A stretch of DNA of 64,000 nt, taken from NCBI RefSeq assembly GCF_036507355.1, contig NZ_AP027877.1. One strand, 5' to 3'. The notes under the pieces were generated by a model that saw nothing but the letters and a program-made list of their open reading frames with translations, was not told the DNA's origin and did not search any database. The stretch is from Escherichia coli. Lineage in GTDB: Bacteria > Pseudomonadota > Gammaproteobacteria > Enterobacterales > Enterobacteriaceae. Positions 28,221 to 33,346 of this stretch are shown in pieces. A program made the translations under genes and the position numbers. Position 1 is the first letter of the stretch. Each line of letters starts with the position of its first letter.

Positions 28221-28339
28221 CGCGTATCCTCCTCTGAAGATATTCTTTAAGTTTACTCCTTTCCTGCAATCATCAGGATTAATTCAGAGTTATATACCAG
28301 GCTTAGCTGGGGTTGCCCCTTAATCTCTGGAGAATAACG

Positions 28340-30085
28340 ATGATAAAACCGACGTTTTTACGCCGGGTGGCCATTGCTGCTCTGTTCACAGGAAGTTGTT
28401 TTAGTACGGTAGCCGCGCCACCTGCGCCGTCTCCTGTTTCTTACGGCGTGGAGGAAGATGTCTTTCATCCGGTACGCGCGAAACAGGGGATGGTGGCGTC
28501 TGTCGATGCTACTGCCACTCAGGTGGGGGTGGATATCCTCAAGGAGGGCGGGAATGCCGTTGATGCCGCCGTGGCTGTGGGCTACGCGCTGGCGGTAACG
28601 CATCCGCAGGCAGGGAATCTGGGCGGTGGTGGTTTTATGCTGATCCGCTCGAAAAATGGCAATACCACCGCTATCGATTTCCGCGAAATGGCACCCGCCA
28701 AAGCGACCCGCGATATGTTCCTTGATGACCAGGGCAACCCGGACAGCAAAAAATCACTCACTTCGCATCTGGCTTCCGGCACGCCCGGTACGGTCGCTGG
28801 TTTCTCGCTGGCGTTGGATAAATACGGCACAATGCCGTTGAACAAAGTGGTGCAGCCAGCGTTTAAACTGGCACGCGATGGTTTTATCGTTAACGACGCA
28901 CTGGCTGACGATCTCAAAACCTACGGGAGCGAAGTGCTGCCGAATCACGAAAACAGCAAGGCTATCTTCTGGAAAGAGGGCGAGCCGCTGAAAAAGGGCG
29001 ACAAGCTGGTGCAGGCGAACCTGGCAAAGAGCCTGGAGATGATTGCCGAAAACGGCCCGGACGAATTCTACAAAGGCACGATAGCGGAACAGATTGCCCA
29101 GGAGATGCAGAAAAACGGTGGCCTGATCACTAAAGAAGATTTAGCGGCGTATAAAGCGGTCGAACGCACACCGATAAGCGGCGATTATCGCGGGTATCAG
29201 GTTTACTCCATGCCACCGCCATCCTCCGGCGGGATCCATATCGTACAAATCCTCAATATTCTGGAAAACTTCGATATGAAGAAATACGGTTTTGGCAGCG
29301 CCGACGCGATGCAGATCATGGCAGAAGCGGAGAAATATGCCTACGCTGACCGCTCGGAATATCTTGGCGACCCGGATTTTGTGAAAGTCCCGTGGCAGGC
29401 GCTGACCAATAAAGCCTATGCCAAATCTATTGCGGAGCAAATCGATATCAATAAAGCGAAACCGTCCAGCGAGATTCGCCCTGGCAAGCTTGCGCCTTAT
29501 GAGAGTAATCAAACTACCCATTACTCAGTGGTGGATAAAGACGGTAACGCCGTGGCGGTGACCTATACGCTGAACACCACCTTCGGTACGGGTATTGTCG
29601 CGGGCGAGAGCGGTATTCTGCTTAATAACCAGATGGATGATTTCTCCGCCAAACCGGGCGTACCGAACGTTTACGGGCTGGTGGGCGGTGATGCCAACGC
29701 GGTCGGGCCGAATAAACGCCCACTGTCGTCGATGTCACCAACCATTGTGGTGAAAGACGGTAAAACCTGGCTGGTTACCGGTAGCCCTGGCGGGAGTCGG
29801 ATTATTACCACCGTGCTGCAAATAGTGGTGAATAGCATCGATTATGGCATGAACGTCGCCGAAGCGACCAATGCGCCGCGTTTCCACCATCAGTGGTTGC
29901 CGGACGAGCTGCGTGTCGAAAAAGGGTTTAGCCCGGATACGCTCAAGCTGCTGGAAGCAAAAGGTCAGAAAGTGGCGCTGAAAGAGGCGATGGGCAGTAC
30001 ACAAAGCATTATGGTTGGGCCGGACGGTGAGTTGTACGGCGCATCCGACCCGCGCTCGGTGGATGATTTAACGGCGGGGTACTAA
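28340..30085 (+). CDS. ggt: Gamma-glutamyltranspeptidase Ggt
   Basis: ORF 28313..30085 trimmed to MIKPTFLRRVAIAALF; catalytic TTHYSVVD region present. Confidence 0.95.
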   Translation: MIKPTFLRRVAIAALFTGSCFSTVAAPPAPSPVSYGVEEDVFHPVRAKQGMVASVDATATQVGVDILKEGGNAVDAAVAVGYALAVTHPQAGNLGGGGFMLIRSKNGNTTAIDFREMAPAKATRDMFLDDQGNPDSKKSLTSHLASGTPGTVAGFSLALDKYGTMPLNKVVQPAFKLARDGFIVNDALADDLKTYGSEVLPNHENSKAIFWKEGEPLKKGDKLVQANLAKSLEMIAENGPDEFYKGTIAEQIAQEMQKNGGLITKEDLAAYKAVERTPISGDYRGYQVYSMPPPSSGGIHIVQILNILENFDMKKYGFGSADAMQIMAEAEKYAYADRSEYLGDPDFVKVPWQALTNKAYAKSIAEQIDINKAKPSSEIRPGKLAPYESNQTTHYSVVDKDGNAVAVTYTLNTTFGTGIVAGESGILLNNQMDDFSAKPGVPNVYGLVGGDANAVGPNKRPLSSMSPTIVVKDGKTWLVTGSPGGSRIITTVLQIVVNSIDYGMNVAEATNAPRFHHQWLPDELRVEKGFSPDTLKLLEAKGQKVALKEAMGSTQSIMVGPDGELYGASDPRSVDDLTAGY

Positions 30086-30093
30086 GGTTAGCG

Positions 30094-30124
30094 GCCCTCT
30101 TCGTGGGAAGAGGGCTATTTTGTC
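30094..30124. terminator. Bidirectional rho-independent terminator between ggt and yrhB
   Basis: Hairpin gccctcttc-gtgg-gaagagggc flanked by T/A tracts. Confidence 0.75.
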
Positions 30125-30407
30125 AGGGCAAGCCGAAGGTAGCCTTTTTTATTTCGTAATCCTGTAGATATTCTTCCAGCGGCTTTGCCGTTCCCAGAGA
30201 ATGAATTTCACCACTGTCTTTATCAATAATAAAAGGTGCGTTACCAGCTAAGCGCGCGGCCTCATCTCCAGTTTCGAGAAATTCTCGTGCTTCGAAACAG
30301 AAATACCAGCCCTGGCTAAAGCGTCCATGTAGAGTAATGACGACCGGGAGATCTGCATCATCAAGGTAATGGTTCGCTTTCGCGAATGCGTCGTGATAAG
30401 TAATTAT
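30123..30407 (-). CDS. yrhB: YrhB homolog (93 codons read from sequence); expected initiator position is ATA, not ATG
   Basis: Minus-strand translation ITYHDAFAKANHYLDDADLPVVITLHGRFSQGWYFCFEAREFLETGDEAARLAGNAPFIIDKDSGEIHSLGTAKPLEEYLQDYEIKKATFGLP; not in the ORF track because there is no ATG/GTG/TTG before the upstream in-frame stop. Confidence 0.55.
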   Translation of the reverse strand: MITYHDAFAKANHYLDDADLPVVITLHGRFSQGWYFCFEAREFLETGDEAARLAGNAPFIIDKDSGEIHSLGTAKPLEEYLQDYEIKKATFGLP

Positions 30408-30604
30408 AATTATAATAAATATTATTGTTGAGTGTTATATTATTATTCCTGTGTGATACATTGAGCAAAGGCGCGTTCATCTTCGTCAAAGATATTATTA
30501 AATGCTGGTTTTGAAAAAAGTTCATCGGATAAGATATAGTCACGAAATAAGTATCTGCTAATATTTTGTGATTTTTTTCAGAACGTCGAACGGGATTTTC
30601 TTAT

Positions 30605-30769
30605 TTAAGATATCAGAATCTTATGATTCGGGTAAAATTCTAAATAAATCAACATGTCACTAAAATCATCATAGCCATTAGCTATTTCGGCTAAAATAGA
30701 GACTACATGTCTTCGGTCCATCTCACTTAAGGAGTGTAGTTCCGTTGTAAGTTTTTCCATAGCTTGCAT
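30605..30769 (-). CDS. Possible small ORF (54 aa)
   Basis: ATG..TAA ORF read by hand: MQAMEKLTTELHSLSEMDRRHVVSILAEIANGYDDFSDMLIYLEFYPNHKILIS; AT-rich; below the track length cutoff. Confidence 0.25.
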   Translation of the reverse strand: MQAMEKLTTELHSLSEMDRRHVVSILAEIANGYDDFSDMLIYLEFYPNHKILIS

Positions 30770-30854
30770 TGCTAAATTTCGAACAAGGAATTTTCTGGTG
30801 GTAATCTCTAAAAAGATGGTATGGTTTACAATGATTTTTGTTTCCTTTTGATTA

Positions 30855-31349
30855 TTATGAACAACTGTCCATGATTTCGTTTAAGAATGAAGAGAAATCA
30901 CTAAACGAACTGAATATATTTTCTGTGCCAATATTATCTCTAATTTCAAAAAAGTTACTTTTAATGTCATAAGTAAATATTGAAATGCTATCATCCCCGA
31001 TCACTAACCGTTCTTGTAGATCAGGGTTTATGAAATCATCATTATTTCTATAAAATTCATTTACGGCAAAAAGGTTTTTAACTGAAGGTTCTGGAATCGA
31101 GAGGCTAAATAATCGTAATCCATTAACTTCGAATCCATCCATTGCTCTTAAAAAAGTAAGATAATCAGGTTGATTCTTAAAAAGAATACTAACTTCATTA
31201 CATAACTTCTCCAGGCAATTAGTTGAATTAGAATTAAATTCTATTTGGATTATACTTTCAATAAATGATTCCTTGAGCGGTGCTTCAAATGGATAGTCTA
31301 AATCATTCATCATTTTTATTAATTTGTTTATTTGGGTTTTAGTCATCAT
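30855..31349 (-). CDS. Putative immunity protein (YrhA-like), translationally coupled to the upstream Hcp-HNH gene (164 aa)
   Basis: Start ATG overlaps the stop of the HNH reading frame (ATGA); AT-rich, acidic small protein typical of immunity genes. Confidence 0.6.
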   Translation of the reverse strand: MMTKTQINKLIKMMNDLDYPFEAPLKESFIESIIQIEFNSNSTNCLEKLCNEVSILFKNQPDYLTFLRAMDGFEVNGLRLFSLSIPEPSVKNLFAVNEFYRNNDDFINPDLQERLVIGDDSISIFTYDIKSNFFEIRDNIGTENIFSSFSDFSSFLNEIMDSCS

Positions 31350-32524
31350 TTTGTGGGTTCCATAATATTTTTCATGGGAGGATAAATTGAGCCAGATGGA
31401 ATGGCCCAGGGAGTGATTTTACTTTCACCTACTAATATTCCCTTAGCTATTCGTGATTGCATGTTAGTAAAAACTTTATGATATGGTTCGTTTTCGATTA
31501 ATACTAAATTTTCGAAATCATTAGTACCACCATCATCTAGAGATAGTTTATGGTGAACATTATAATTTAGAGGAACATAGCCCTTTCTCATTCTTAAAAG
31601 GTCTTCGGCGTTGAATCTTCCAGATGCTTCGGAGGTTTTTGCAAGTTTGATAAGAAAATTTTTTCTTACAGTTTTGTTAAACTCCTTTCGTAAGTTAGCT
31701 AAGTCTTTTGAAGGTCTCTTAATGTATATTATTTATATTATGTCTATGCCATCAAGAAGTTTTTGTTGACCTCTAAGTTTGCCTAAGTAACTATTTATTT
31801 CTGTATATGTATCAACTCTAGAACGCTTTGTTAAAAGAATAGATGCTGTTGCTATCGCTATGCCCGCTGTTTTTTCATTTAGTATTTGATCATAGCCTTT
31901 GATTGCATCTCCACCCAGTTTTTCCGCAGTATCTCTGAATCCTTCAATGTTCCCATTGTATACGCCACCAGCAGCAAGTAGCCTGCCAACAGCTTTGCTG
32001 TTTAACGTTTTGAAACGATTATTTGTTTGGTTTTTTGAATTTGGTAAAAACAAACGGTTATAATTTTCAGGGAGTGCCAAATAGCTGAACTCGGTATTTG
32101 CGATAAGATGTTGACAGAGGATAAATTCATAACTAACAGTTATTGTTTCTGTATCCAGTTGATTTTCAATGATCTGATGATGAATAGCCGATAAAAAAGC
32201 GCCTCTTAGTTGTATATAATAATACTTTTCCCATCTGCCAAATCTATTGATTCTATAAAAGTCAAATCCCATAAATAATTGCTCATTATTGTTAATGGAA
32301 TTAATAAGTAATGGAGTGCTTTTATCAATTAATTTACAAAATGTTATACCCTGTAACTGTGAACCAAGCCCCGTATTAGTAATGCTATTTGCGAGTGAGA
32401 ATGTAAATATTTCATTCTCATGCCCGCTCTGCCAGCGATTACCTATAGATTCAGTAGTCCCACAACCTGCGGAGATGCTTCCTTGTTGTTCTCCCGTTAC
32501 TGTCAGGTAAACAATATTACTCAT
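31346..32524 (-). pseudogene. yhhZ: Hcp-domain protein with C-terminal HNH nuclease (YhhZ-like Hcp-ET toxin), interrupted by an in-frame TAA
   Basis: ORFs 31733..32524 (263 aa, Hcp-like N-terminus) and 31346..31591 (HNH motif NYNVHHKLSLDDGGTNDFENLVLIENEPYH) are in the same frame, separated by one TAA at 31733..31735; the full span is 393 codons. Confidence 0.7.
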
Positions 32525-32760: not shown

Positions 32761-33249
32761 TTACTTCACCCGCGCCATATAATACGCATCGACATATTCA
32801 CCATTACGCAATGCGTACTTCTTACCAGTCCCTTCAATTTCAAAGCCGTATTTTTTATAGACCTTAATTGCCGGGGCGTTATCGACAAACACGGTTAGTT
32901 CAATGCGATCTACCCGCAACCAGTTGTCGCACATTTCAATCATCTCTCGCATAAGGGCGCTGGCGACGCCGCGATTCTTCCAACGGGAGTCGACACAGAT
33001 ACCAAAATCGGCAACATGACTGCGGCGTGGGCGCTGTTGCACGTCAATGGTGAGATGACCCACGACGTCTCCATCAATACAGGCGACGAGTTGCTTGATG
33101 CCGGGACGATCGGCGAGTCGCTCCTGCCACATATGATCGGAAGGATGAGGCACCTGTAGTGTGTTGTAATACACCTCCGGCTGGGCGTGAATCTGCCTGA
33201 TGGCCTCGTAATCGCGCGTTTCAGCATGGCGTATCACTATCTCACTCAT
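32761..33249 (-). CDS. yhhY: GNAT N-acetyltransferase YhhY (162 aa)
   Basis: ORF 32761..33327 trimmed to MSEIVIRHAETRDYEAIRQIHA. Confidence 0.9.
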   Translation of the reverse strand: MSEIVIRHAETRDYEAIRQIHAQPEVYYNTLQVPHPSDHMWQERLADRPGIKQLVACIDGDVVGHLTIDVQQRPRRSHVADFGICVDSRWKNRGVASALMREMIEMCDNWLRVDRIELTVFVDNAPAIKVYKKYGFEIEGTGKKYALRNGEYVDAYYMARVK

Positions 33250-33346
33250 TCCTTTGTCCTCTTTGGGGGAAATGTCCCTTTCAACATCATTGACTTTCGA
33301 ATGCGAGTCAAATGCATTTTTTTGCAAAAAGTGTTGGACAAGTGCG

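What the first reader, a model, noticed from the sequence alone, without database searches (positions are those of the whole stretch)
30605..30769. Unlisted 54-aa ORF between the putative immunity gene and yrhB
A hand-read ATG..TAA ORF on the minus strand (MQAMEKLTTELHSLSEMDRRHVVSILAEIANGYDDFSDMLIYLEFYPNHKILIS) lies in the AT-rich spacer. This spacer corresponds to where, in my recollection, K-12 carries an IS1 in yrhA. It could be a second small immunity or accessory protein, or a remnant of a longer gene.
Basis: seen in the sequence. Interest (0 to 1): 0.25.

Follow-up and report, generated by a model that had tools for sequence, protein, structure and literature searches.

The report
yrhD: decayed orphan toxin-immunity gene remnant
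The small ORF is the already-annotated E. coli gene yrhD, and comparison with other bacteria indicates it is the start-less, decaying back end of an ~83-residue gene of the kind that protects bacteria against a neighbour-killing toxin, left behind in a toxin/immunity gene cluster.

Summary
The 54-codon ORF at 30605-30769 (-) is real. It is E. coli yrhD (K-12 b4612, annotated as 51 aa from the second Met), so it is not an unlisted gene.

The ORF alone is not beyond chance: an ATG ORF this long appears in 17% of shuffles of the AT-rich spacer. However, the stop-to-stop frame 30880-30608 is the only hit in the window to a profile of an 82-84-aa protein family (E=1.6e-15). The match starts 84 nt upstream of the ATG, where there is no ATG, GTG or TTG.

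In Photorhabdus, Lelliottia, Ralstonia and others, this family lies directly after, and usually overlaps, the 3' end of one conserved CdiA C-terminal toxin domain. That is the position of a CdiI immunity gene.

In E. coli no toxin remnant is present, and the family's start codon is ACA. Five different nonsense mutations occur among 12 sequences (none in yrhA). pN/pS is about 1.6, against 0.26 for yrhA and 0.16 for yrhB. About a quarter of genomes carrying the region annotate yrhD as a pseudogene or as truncated.

Verdict: a decaying orphan immunity-gene remnant downstream of the yhhZ (Hcp-HNH)/yrhA pair. Interest is low to moderate.

The parts
30605..30769 (-). It equals yrhD plus three N-terminal codons (MQA). 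The first ATG is GTG in K-12-like strains.
30605..30760 (-). Equivalent of the annotated yrhD CDS (51 aa plus stop; K-12 b4612, RefSeq WP_122992111.1). No Shine-Dalgarno-like sequence is visible upstream.
30668..30853 (-). Segment homologous to positions 4-65 of the 82-aa family profile. It begins 84 nt upstream of the ORF's ATG and covers predicted helices 1-3.
30608..30880 (-). Full stop-to-stop open frame (91 codons). It has no ATG, GTG or TTG before 30769. The codon aligned with the family's start Met is ACA. The 5' end overlaps the last codons of yrhA in another frame.
30855..31349 (-). yrhA. NCBIfam 'YrhA family' (E=1.5e-36). Intact and under purifying selection (pN/pS 0.26). Its position, overlapping the yhhZ stop, is that of the cognate immunity gene.
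31346..32524 (-). yhhZ/tssD: an Hcp domain fused to a C-terminal HNH nuclease (Hcp-ET1-type toxin). In this window codon 264 is TAA (31733-31735; GAA in other strains), which cuts the HNH domain off.
   Evidence: PMC6730261
30123..30407 (-). yrhB, a Pfam Imm35 immunity-family protein (E=4e-23, scored on the L001 orthologue) and a further orphan immunity gene. In this window the start codon is ATA instead of ATG (30405-30407).
30913..30942 (-). Sigma-70 promoter-like site TAGAGA-18-TATATT inside the 3' part of yrhA. The same hexamers are listed as an RpoD-holoenzyme SELEX site upstream of yrhD, with an H-NS mark, in K-12.
   Evidence: PMC3946193

Best explanation
**What it is.** The ORF is E. 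coli yrhD. It is not an independent small-protein gene. It is the surviving 3' part of an orphan immunity gene that is decaying.

**Ancestral form (inferred from homologues).** The ancestral gene encoded an ~83-residue, four-helix protein. In other proteobacteria, genes of this family sit immediately downstream of one particular ~100-residue CdiA C-terminal toxin domain and usually overlap its stop codon. By analogy with CdiI proteins, the product would bind and neutralise that toxin. The toxin may be a restriction-endonuclease-fold nuclease, but this is weakly supported.

**State in E. coli (shown).**
- The gene lies behind the yhhZ (Hcp-HNH toxin)/yrhA (immunity) pair and in front of another orphan immunity gene, yrhB (Imm35).
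- The arrangement matches the displaced or orphan cassettes of polymorphic-toxin loci.
- No partner toxin remnant is present.
- The start codon is lost. The annotated 51-aa product would lack helix 1 and half of helix 2.
- The sequence evolves without protein-level constraint and has been knocked out repeatedly in different lineages.

**Inferred steps.** The immunity function of the family rests on gene context only. The displacement history and the lack of function of any residual 51-54-aa peptide are also inferences.
For: 1. **Identity.** Synteny and 94-98% identity to annotated YrhD.
2. **Homology beyond the ORF.**
   - An exhaustive phmmer search found one non-E. coli relative, P0027, whose match covers the start-less extension. 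Pairwise BLASTP: 41% identity over 64 aa, E=1e-14.
   - tblastn of P0027 found homologues in Rahnella, Ralstonia, Pantoea and Streptomyces plasmids.
   - A profile search found 228 proteins, nearly all 82-84 aa.
   - An HMM built from 38 non-E. coli members hits only frame 30880-30608 in the window, at E=1.6e-15, aligning HMM 4-65 to 30853-30668.
3. **Immunity-gene context.**
   - The gene overlaps the CdiA stop by 14 nt in Photorhabdus (L022, L023).
   - It follows an orphan 103-aa CT in Lelliottia (L018, L019).
   - It follows a degraded CT in Cedecea (L024), and CT remnants in Rahnella, Pantoea dispersa and L012.
   - It overlaps the same CT at the end of a large Ralstonia protein by 11 nt (L026), and follows an orphan CT in Paracoccus (L027).
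   - These loci also carry PT-VENN, DUF637, Imm63, CdiI_5, Imm70 and SymE genes.
4. **Decay in E. coli.**
   - The family's Met position is ACA, and there is no in-frame ATG, GTG or TTG before 30769.
   - Five distinct nonsense mutations occur among 12 sequences, and both Met codons are ATA in L003/L004. yrhA has none in 164 codons.
   - pN/pS is 1.6 (extension 0.9, ORF 4.4), against 0.26 for yrhA and 0.16 for yrhB.
   - Divergence between the window and L003 is 8.0%, against 2.2% for yrhA and 6.1% for the non-coding spacer.
   - RefSeq flags yrhD as a pseudogene, or gives a shortened CDS, in all 8 loci checked out of the 15 (of 60) evenly spaced genomes that lack the yrhD gene symbol.
   - The region is absent from 30% of 5426 complete genomes.
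5. **Structure.** The family model has pLDDT 92 with four helices (3-22, 30-45, 49-63, 68-80). The annotated start maps to about position 36.
6. **Conserved positions.** E. coli differs from the family at nearly invariant positions: L9, F22 (in most strains), D31, and the LP..G tail.
Against: - The 51-aa ORF is intact and annotated in about three quarters of the genomes that carry the region.
- A promoter-like, RNAP-binding site lies upstream. A short product therefore cannot be excluded.
- No expression data could be consulted. The supplements of the ribosome-profiling papers are not held.
- The pN/pS values rest on 10 related sequences and few substitutions.
- The immunity function of the family is inferred from gene neighbourhood only.
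- The family has no Pfam or NCBIfam model, no PDB sequence relative and no significant fold match.
- No toxin remnant is present in E. coli to prove the cassette history.
Confidence: 0.8

Rival explanations
1. yrhD is a genuine, functional 51-54-aa small protein, as annotated. It would be translated from ATG 30760 or 30769 and have a role of its own, for example as a regulator or accessory factor of the yhhZ/yrhA system.
For: - It is annotated in K-12 and RefSeq.
- The ORF is intact in about 45 of 60 sampled genomes that carry the region.
- An RpoD-holoenzyme binding site has been reported upstream, and a matching promoter-like site is found in the window.
Against: - pN/pS is above 1 and there are five nonsense alleles. 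Both Met codons are lost in one lineage, while yrhA and yrhB stay constrained.
- No Shine-Dalgarno-like sequence is visible before either ATG (printout).
- The product would be a four-helix bundle missing its first helix.
- The intact copies belong to closely related alleles (97.8% identity class), so intactness reflects shared ancestry.
- None of the 17 papers that mention yrhD reports a function in its title or abstract; the three E. coli papers opened use it only as a locus name or as a hypothetical protein of unknown function.
Confidence: 0.1
2. A near-full-length (~76-aa) immunity protein is still made in the lineages with an open frame. It would start at a non-canonical codon (ATC/ATT at IIVNH, 7-10 nt after an AAGGA motif) or arise by coupling to yrhA translation. 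It would still protect against the cognate toxin delivered by competitors.
For: - The 91-codon frame is open in the window, K-12, L006 and L013, which occurs in only 3.7% of shuffles.
- An SD-like AAGGA precedes ATC ATT in the extension (sequence).
- The L001 nonsense codon lies upstream of that point.
- Orphan immunity genes can be expressed and functional (Poole et al. 2011, PMC3150448).
Against: - pN/pS in the extension is about 0.9.
- Conserved family residues are altered and the C-terminal helix is divergent.
- Other lineages carry stops downstream of that putative start.
- ATC/ATT initiation is very inefficient (general knowledge).
- The strains with an open frame are near-identical, so the open frame needs no selection to explain it.
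Confidence: 0.07
3. The ORF is a chance open frame in AT-rich, horizontally acquired spacer DNA with no coding history.
For: An ATG ORF of at least 54 aa arises in 17% of shuffles. A meaningless 60-aa ORF lies next to it at 30361-30543. There are no Pfam or NCBIfam hits.
Against: The family HMM hit at E=1.6e-15 is restricted to this frame. Alignment to 82-84-aa proteins from many genera is near end-to-end, spanning helices 1-3, with the C-terminal tail divergent.
Confidence: 0.02

Closest known systems
E. coli K-12 yrhD (b4612; UniProt P58037, 'uncharacterized protein YrhD', 51 aa)
   Same: Same locus (between yrhA and yrhB, next to ggt) and 94-98% identical protein. The window ORF is this gene with three extra N-terminal codons.
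   Different: Public annotation treats it as a stand-alone protein of unknown function. Here it appears as the 3' part of a longer, start-less and degenerating reading frame.
Orphan cdiA-CT/cdiI and rhs-CT/rhsI modules of polymorphic toxin loci (Poole et al. 2011, PMC3150448)
   Same: It is a small gene of an immunity-type family lying downstream of the resident toxin/immunity pair in a cluster of such genes. Its homologues are found in CDI orphan arrays.
   Different: - The resident toxin is a T6SS Hcp-HNH fusion, not CdiA or Rhs.
- No orphan toxin fragment survives in E. coli.
- The immunity gene itself has lost its start and is decaying, whereas the orphan modules tested by Poole et al. were functional.
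The uncurated 82-84-aa 'FLEF' family (e.g. Rahnella UJD92436.1, Ralstonia WP_037044019.1, Pantoea WP_141495966.1). One member is named 'MafI family immunity protein' by NCBI.
   Same: Alignable over helices 1-3 at 25-42% identity, with shared motifs (IVN..IFLE, A.QA.E.L, LSE..R, EI.N.Y).
   Different: - E. coli lacks the start codon and the adjacent toxin.
- It has substitutions at nearly invariant positions, an insertion, and a divergent tail after position 65.
YrhB / Pfam Imm35 (PF15567), the neighbouring gene
   Same: Also an immunity-family gene without a partner toxin in the same island.
   Different: It is an unrelated family. It is intact in 10 of the 11 sequences compared (internal stop in L009, start codon ATA in the window) and under purifying selection (pN/pS 0.16).

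Membership tests
E. coli YrhD (RefSeq 'protein YrhD', K-12 b4612) | High sequence identity to K-12 YrhD | tested here: met
   94-98% identity to YrhD clusters. The alignment with K-12 shows 2 amino-acid differences within the 51 residues.
E. coli YrhD (RefSeq 'protein YrhD', K-12 b4612) | Position between yrhA and yrhB beside ggt | tested here: met
   Annotated regions of 10 E. coli genomes, including MG1655.
82-84-aa FLEF family (putative CdiI-type immunity proteins) | Significant similarity to a family profile built without the candidate | tested here: met
   hmmsearch of the 38-member HMM against the six-frame window gave one hit, 30880-30608 (-), at E=1.6e-15, covering HMM 4-65.
82-84-aa FLEF family (putative CdiI-type immunity proteins) | Intact ORF of about 82-84 codons with a start codon | tested here: not met
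   The aligned start position is ACA, and there is no ATG, GTG or TTG before 30769. There are nonsense alleles in other strains.
82-84-aa FLEF family (putative CdiI-type immunity proteins) | Located directly downstream of, or overlapping, the conserved CT toxin domain (...MFDELGIKNIEVKVVKE) | tested here: not met
   tblastn of the toxin CT against the window found nothing near the locus. yrhA abuts the frame instead. The feature is met in L012, L014, L017, L018, L019, L022, L023, L024, L026 and L027.
82-84-aa FLEF family (putative CdiI-type immunity proteins) | Neutralises the cognate toxin | not testable with these tools
   Needs co-expression or competition assays.
MafI family immunity protein (NCBI name carried by cluster P0093) | Match to an NCBIfam MafI model | tested here: not met
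   No NCBIfam model matched P0093, eight other family members or the E. coli frame at a meaningful score. The best hits were unrelated families at E>=0.02, far below their cut-offs.
Orphan immunity gene of a polymorphic toxin locus (sensu Poole et al. 2011) | Lies downstream of a complete toxin/immunity pair, among other immunity-family genes | tested here: met
   The gene order is yhhZ (T6SS_HCP plus a sub-threshold Pfam HNH hit, E=8.5e-4, 19.9 bits vs 21.4 cut-off), yrhA (YrhA family), this frame, then yrhB (Imm35).
Orphan immunity gene of a polymorphic toxin locus (sensu Poole et al. 2011) | Expressed and protective | not testable with these tools
   No expression data were accessible. The population-genetic signal argues against it.
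Pfam / NCBIfam curated families (any) | Hit above the curated threshold for the ORF or the extended frame | tested here: not met
   No family reached threshold.

The most novel reading that the evidence does not exclude
In K-12-like lineages the frame is not dead. A truncated (51-54 aa, helices 2-4) or non-canonically initiated (~76 aa) YrhD would still bind the restriction-endonuclease-like CdiA-CT toxin carried by Photorhabdus, Lelliottia, Ralstonia and related bacteria. E. coli would then have standing 'orphan' immunity against a weapon it does not itself encode. More broadly, the 82-84-aa family and its ~100-aa toxin would be a new, uncurated CDI toxin/immunity pair.
Probability: 0.07. Interest if true: 0.45.

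Novelty: new member of a known kind. Interest (0 to 1): 0.28.

Why it matters
- **Annotation.** yrhD is one of the remaining uncharacterised genes of E. coli K-12. These results give it an origin (an orphan immunity gene of a CdiI-type family). They also suggest the current 51-aa annotation describes a pseudogene fragment rather than a small protein. This matters for small-protein catalogues and for K-12 annotation.
- **Locus history.** The yhhZ-yrhA-yrhD-yrhB island reads as a layered record of displaced toxin/immunity cassettes at a T6SS Hcp-toxin locus, with three different immunity-type genes behind one toxin.
- **By-product.** The work points to a toxin/immunity pair with no Pfam, NCBIfam or PDB representative. 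The toxin is a ~100-aa CT domain with a possible PD-(D/E)xK-like fold, and the immunity protein is a four-helix, 83-aa protein. Members occur in alpha-, beta- and gammaproteobacterial genomes.
- **Limit.** None of this changes how such systems are understood. It is a tidy classification, not a surprise.

Tried and rejected
- **Curated families.** Pfam and NCBIfam scans of the 54-aa ORF, the extended frame and nine family members gave nothing above noise.
- **Word-indexed protein search** with the 54-aa peptide returned only E. coli variants. The same search with P0027 returned only P0027 itself.
- **P0027 context.** Its contig is only 327 bp, so it gives almost no context.
- **Genome-contig scan** with a 3-sequence alignment used very narrow patterns. 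It returned only one contig, E. coli-like DNA in a 'Flavihumibacter' MAG.
- **Downstream continuation.** I considered that the ancestral gene continued downstream in the same frame (…ILIS*IRKSRSTF*KKSQ…DEDERAFAQCITQE). This was rejected. The shared frame is specific to this window because of a 2-bp deletion near 30574 that the 11 other E. coli sequences lack. That segment also has no homologues outside E. coli.
- **Kluyvera synteny.** I considered that a Kluyvera family member sits next to a yhhY orthologue, implying ancient synteny. This was rejected, because the match is only generic GNAT similarity (35% over 51 aa).
- **PDB searches for the immunity family** (sequence and Foldseek) gave only generic helical-bundle noise.
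- **PDB and Pfam searches for the toxin** gave nothing. Foldseek gave only weak restriction-endonuclease-like and TseT-TsiT-entry hits (E about 0.05-0.6), so the toxin's activity remains a suggestion.
- **Ribosome-profiling supplements** that might list yrhD are not held.
- **Ma et al. 2017**, the Hcp-ET primary paper, is not in the library. I relied on a review.

Full report
**1. The observation**

The mechanical ORF list also contains it.

The gene order on the minus strand is:
- yhhY (32761-33327)
- yhhZ/tssD (31346-32524)
- yrhA (30855-31349)
- this ORF
- yrhB (30123-30407)

ggt lies on the plus strand at 28313-30085.

The ORF is not unlisted in public annotation. A megablast of 30090-31400 against 5426 complete E. 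coli genomes finds the region in 4089 of them, with 'yrhD: protein YrhD' annotated under the match. In K-12 MG1655 it is b4612, 'uncharacterized protein YrhD', 51 aa, starting at the second Met.

The insertion corresponds to window 30960-30968, inside yrhA and not in the spacer.

**2. Is the ORF more than chance?**

On its own it is not. The spacer is 31% G+C. An ATG ORF of at least 54 aa appears in 17% of 2000 dinucleotide-preserving shuffles. A 91-codon stop-free frame, which is what is actually present at 30880-30608, appears in 3.7%. There is no Pfam or NCBIfam hit.

**3. What it is homologous to**

- A word-indexed search with the 54-aa peptide found only E. coli proteins, several of them truncated or frameshifted variants.
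- I then ran the exhaustive HMMER search with the conceptual translation of the whole spacer frame. Among 1.84 billion representatives, it found E. coli variants and one foreign protein, P0027 (79 aa).
- The P0027 match extends into the part of the frame upstream of the ORF's ATG. Pairwise it is 41% identical over 64 residues, E=1e-14.
- tblastn of P0027 against plasmids found ~75-84-aa homologues in Rahnella, Ralstonia, Pantoea and Streptomyces.
- A profile of six sequences then retrieved 228 proteins, nearly all 82-84 aa. They come from Rahnella, Serratia, Citrobacter, Kluyvera, Cedecea, Leclercia, Klebsiella, Photorhabdus, Pectobacterium, Lelliottia, Salmonella enterica subsp. indica and others.
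- As a non-circular test, I built an HMM from 38 non-E. coli members and searched the six-frame translation of the whole window. The only significant hit is frame 30880-30608 (-), at E=1.6e-15. It aligns profile positions 4-65 to window 30853-30668.

That upstream part contains the family's most conserved motif (IVN..IFLE). It has no in-frame ATG, GTG or TTG. The codon aligned with the family's start Met is ACA.

**4. What the family does (inferred from context)**

The family has no Pfam or NCBIfam model, no PDB sequence relative and no significant fold match. AlphaFold2 gives a confident four-helix model (pLDDT 92; helices 3-22, 30-45, 49-63, 68-80).

The gene context is consistent across genera:
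- **Photorhabdus.** The gene overlaps by 14 nt the stop of a >2000-residue CdiA-like protein with TPS, Fil_haemagg and DUF637 domains (L022, L023).
- **Lelliottia.** It overlaps a 103-aa orphan C-terminal fragment, in an array that also holds a CdiA with PT-VENN/TNT, an Imm63 gene and another PT-VENN orphan (L018).
- **Ralstonia pseudosolanacearum.** It overlaps by 11 nt the end of a large protein carrying the same C-terminal domain (L026).
- **Cedecea, Rahnella, Pantoea dispersa, Paracoccus and the P0027 contig.** Degraded or orphan copies of the same toxin 3' end (…MFDELGIKNIEVKVVKE) lie directly upstream.

This is the canonical position of a CdiI immunity gene, and the loci are the orphan cdiA-CT/cdiI arrays described by Poole et al. 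2011 (PMC3150448).

The toxin domain has no Pfam or PDB sequence hit. A shallow-alignment AlphaFold model (pLDDT 77) gives only weak Foldseek matches. These are to NucS/EndoMS, BstYI and chains of the TseT-TsiT entries (E about 0.05-0.6). Together with a conserved D…D-R-K motif, this suggests, but does not establish, a restriction-endonuclease-like nuclease.

**5. State of the E. coli copy**

I aligned the window with 11 other E. coli sequences from the different identity classes. The extended frame shows the following:
- No start codon at the family position in any sequence.
- CAA>TAA in the extension in L001.
- Both candidate Met codons changed to ATA, plus TTA>TAA, in the 92%-identity class (L003, L004).
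- TAT>TAG in L005, L008, L009 and L010.
- A further stop in L010.
- TTA>TGA in L007.

That is five different nonsense codons in 84 codons among 12 sequences. yrhA (164 codons) has none. yrhB has one, in L009.

| Region | Pooled Nei-Gojobori pN/pS |
|---|---|
| yrhA | 0.26 |
| yrhB | 0.16 |
| Upstream extension | 0.9 |
| The 54 codons | 4.4 |
| Whole frame | 1.6 |

The counts behind these ratios are small and the pairs are not independent.

Between the window and L003 the frame differs at 8.0% of sites, against 2.2% in yrhA, 2.5% in yrhB and 6.1% in the non-coding spacer.

In a 60-row sample taken at even steps through 3802 genomes that carry the spacer, 45 rows carry the gene symbol yrhD and 15 do not. 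All eight of those 15 that I opened are annotated as 'internal stop', 'missing C-terminus', a shortened CDS or IS-disrupted. The region is missing from 30% of genomes.

The annotated 51-aa product begins at about family position 36. It would therefore lack helix 1 and half of helix 2 of the bundle. E. coli also departs from the family at nearly invariant positions, and its C-terminal tail no longer aligns. No Shine-Dalgarno-like sequence is visible before either ATG (sequence printed).

**6. Best explanation and rivals**

The most economical reading (confidence about 0.8) is that yrhD is a decaying orphan immunity gene. It is the leftover of a toxin/immunity cassette, now sitting behind the resident yhhZ (Hcp-HNH; Hcp-ET1-type, PMC6730261)/yrhA pair and in front of another orphan immunity gene, yrhB (Imm35, E=4e-23).

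The rivals are:
- **A genuine 51-54-aa small protein (about 0.1).** It is helped by the annotation, by intactness in the common A/B1-like alleles, and by an RpoD-SELEX/H-NS site upstream (PMC3946193; the matching site is at 30942-30913). It is contradicted by the population data.
- **A near-full-length protein from a non-canonical start (about 0.07).** An AAGGA motif precedes ATC ATT in the extension.
- **A chance ORF (about 0.02).** This is refuted by the homology.

None of the 17 papers that mention yrhD reports a function in its title or abstract. The three E. coli papers I opened use it only as a locus name or as a hypothetical protein of unknown function.

**7. Novelty and score**

The gene is known and annotated. 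What is new is its classification: a 5'-truncated member of an uncurated CdiI-type family, paired elsewhere with an uncurated CT toxin. That makes it a new member of a known kind, an orphan immunity remnant in a polymorphic-toxin locus. It is useful for K-12 annotation and small-protein lists, but it is not surprising to a specialist. Interest is 0.28.

Noticed in passing
window 31733-31735 (-), within yhhZ/tssD 31346-32524: Codon 264 of the Hcp-HNH toxin gene is TAA here, but GAA in K-12, L001 and L006. This splits the gene into a 263-aa Hcp part and an 81-aa HNH ORF, so the toxin is probably inactive in this strain. Strain SF-468 (L003) also has an 'internal stop' in tssD.
   Followed up: yes
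window 30405-30407 (-), start of yrhB: The yrhB start codon is ATA in the window, but ATG in the 10 other E. coli sequences that cover it. The ORF listing does not list yrhB for this reason. Together with the yhhZ stop, it suggests the whole island is eroding in this strain, while yrhA stays intact.
   Followed up: partly
window ~30574 (spacer between yrhD and yrhB): The window has a 2-bp deletion (AAAA--AAAT against AAAAAGAAAT or AAAATAAAT) relative to all 11 other E. coli sequences. This deletion is what puts the downstream acidic peptide frame in phase with yrhD, in this window only.
   Followed up: yes
window 30446-30577 (-): A 44-codon open stretch (KKSQNISRYLFRDYILSDELFSKPAFNNIFDEDERAFAQCITQE) lies just upstream of yrhB. 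A 34-aa fragment of it exists as a predicted E. coli protein (P0024). No homologue outside E. coli was found in the exhaustive search. It could be a remnant of the toxin once paired with YrhB/Imm35, or nothing.
   Followed up: partly
window 30361-30543 (-): A 60-aa GTG ORF of low-complexity, Asn/Ile-rich sequence overlaps the yrhB start region. It has no family hits and looks like a chance ORF in AT-rich DNA.
   Followed up: partly
L022:5649-6255, L018:5703-6255, L026:3001-3600, L027:2977-3560: A conserved ~100-aa CdiA C-terminal toxin domain (…RFDGVDGDVMIDRK…RWEVP…MFDELGIKNIEVKVVKE) is paired with the 82-84-aa four-helix immunity family in alpha-, beta- and gammaproteobacterial genomes. Neither partner has a Pfam, NCBIfam or PDB representative. 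The toxin fold is weakly restriction-endonuclease-like.
   Followed up: partly
L013 (CABHOW010000200.1, 'MAG: uncultured Flavihumibacter sp.'): A 3996-bp contig of a Bacteroidota MAG is 98.9% identical to the E. coli yrhA-yrhD region. This is almost certainly E. coli contamination of the bin.
   Followed up: no
L020/L021:6001-6252 (Kluyvera ascorbata and a metagenome contig): A subgroup of the family (motif IALEFT, 83 aa; also in Klebsiella michiganensis, Citrobacter, Phytobacter, Pseudescherichia) has members that, in the two contexts examined (Kluyvera and a metagenome contig), sit intact in a chromosomal context with no toxin gene nearby. It may be a maintained orphan immunity gene.
   Followed up: no
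window 30093-30116 (+): A terminator-like hairpin (10 pairs, then a T-run) lies directly after ggt. It faces the 3' end of yrhB and is probably shared by the two convergent genes.
   Followed up: no
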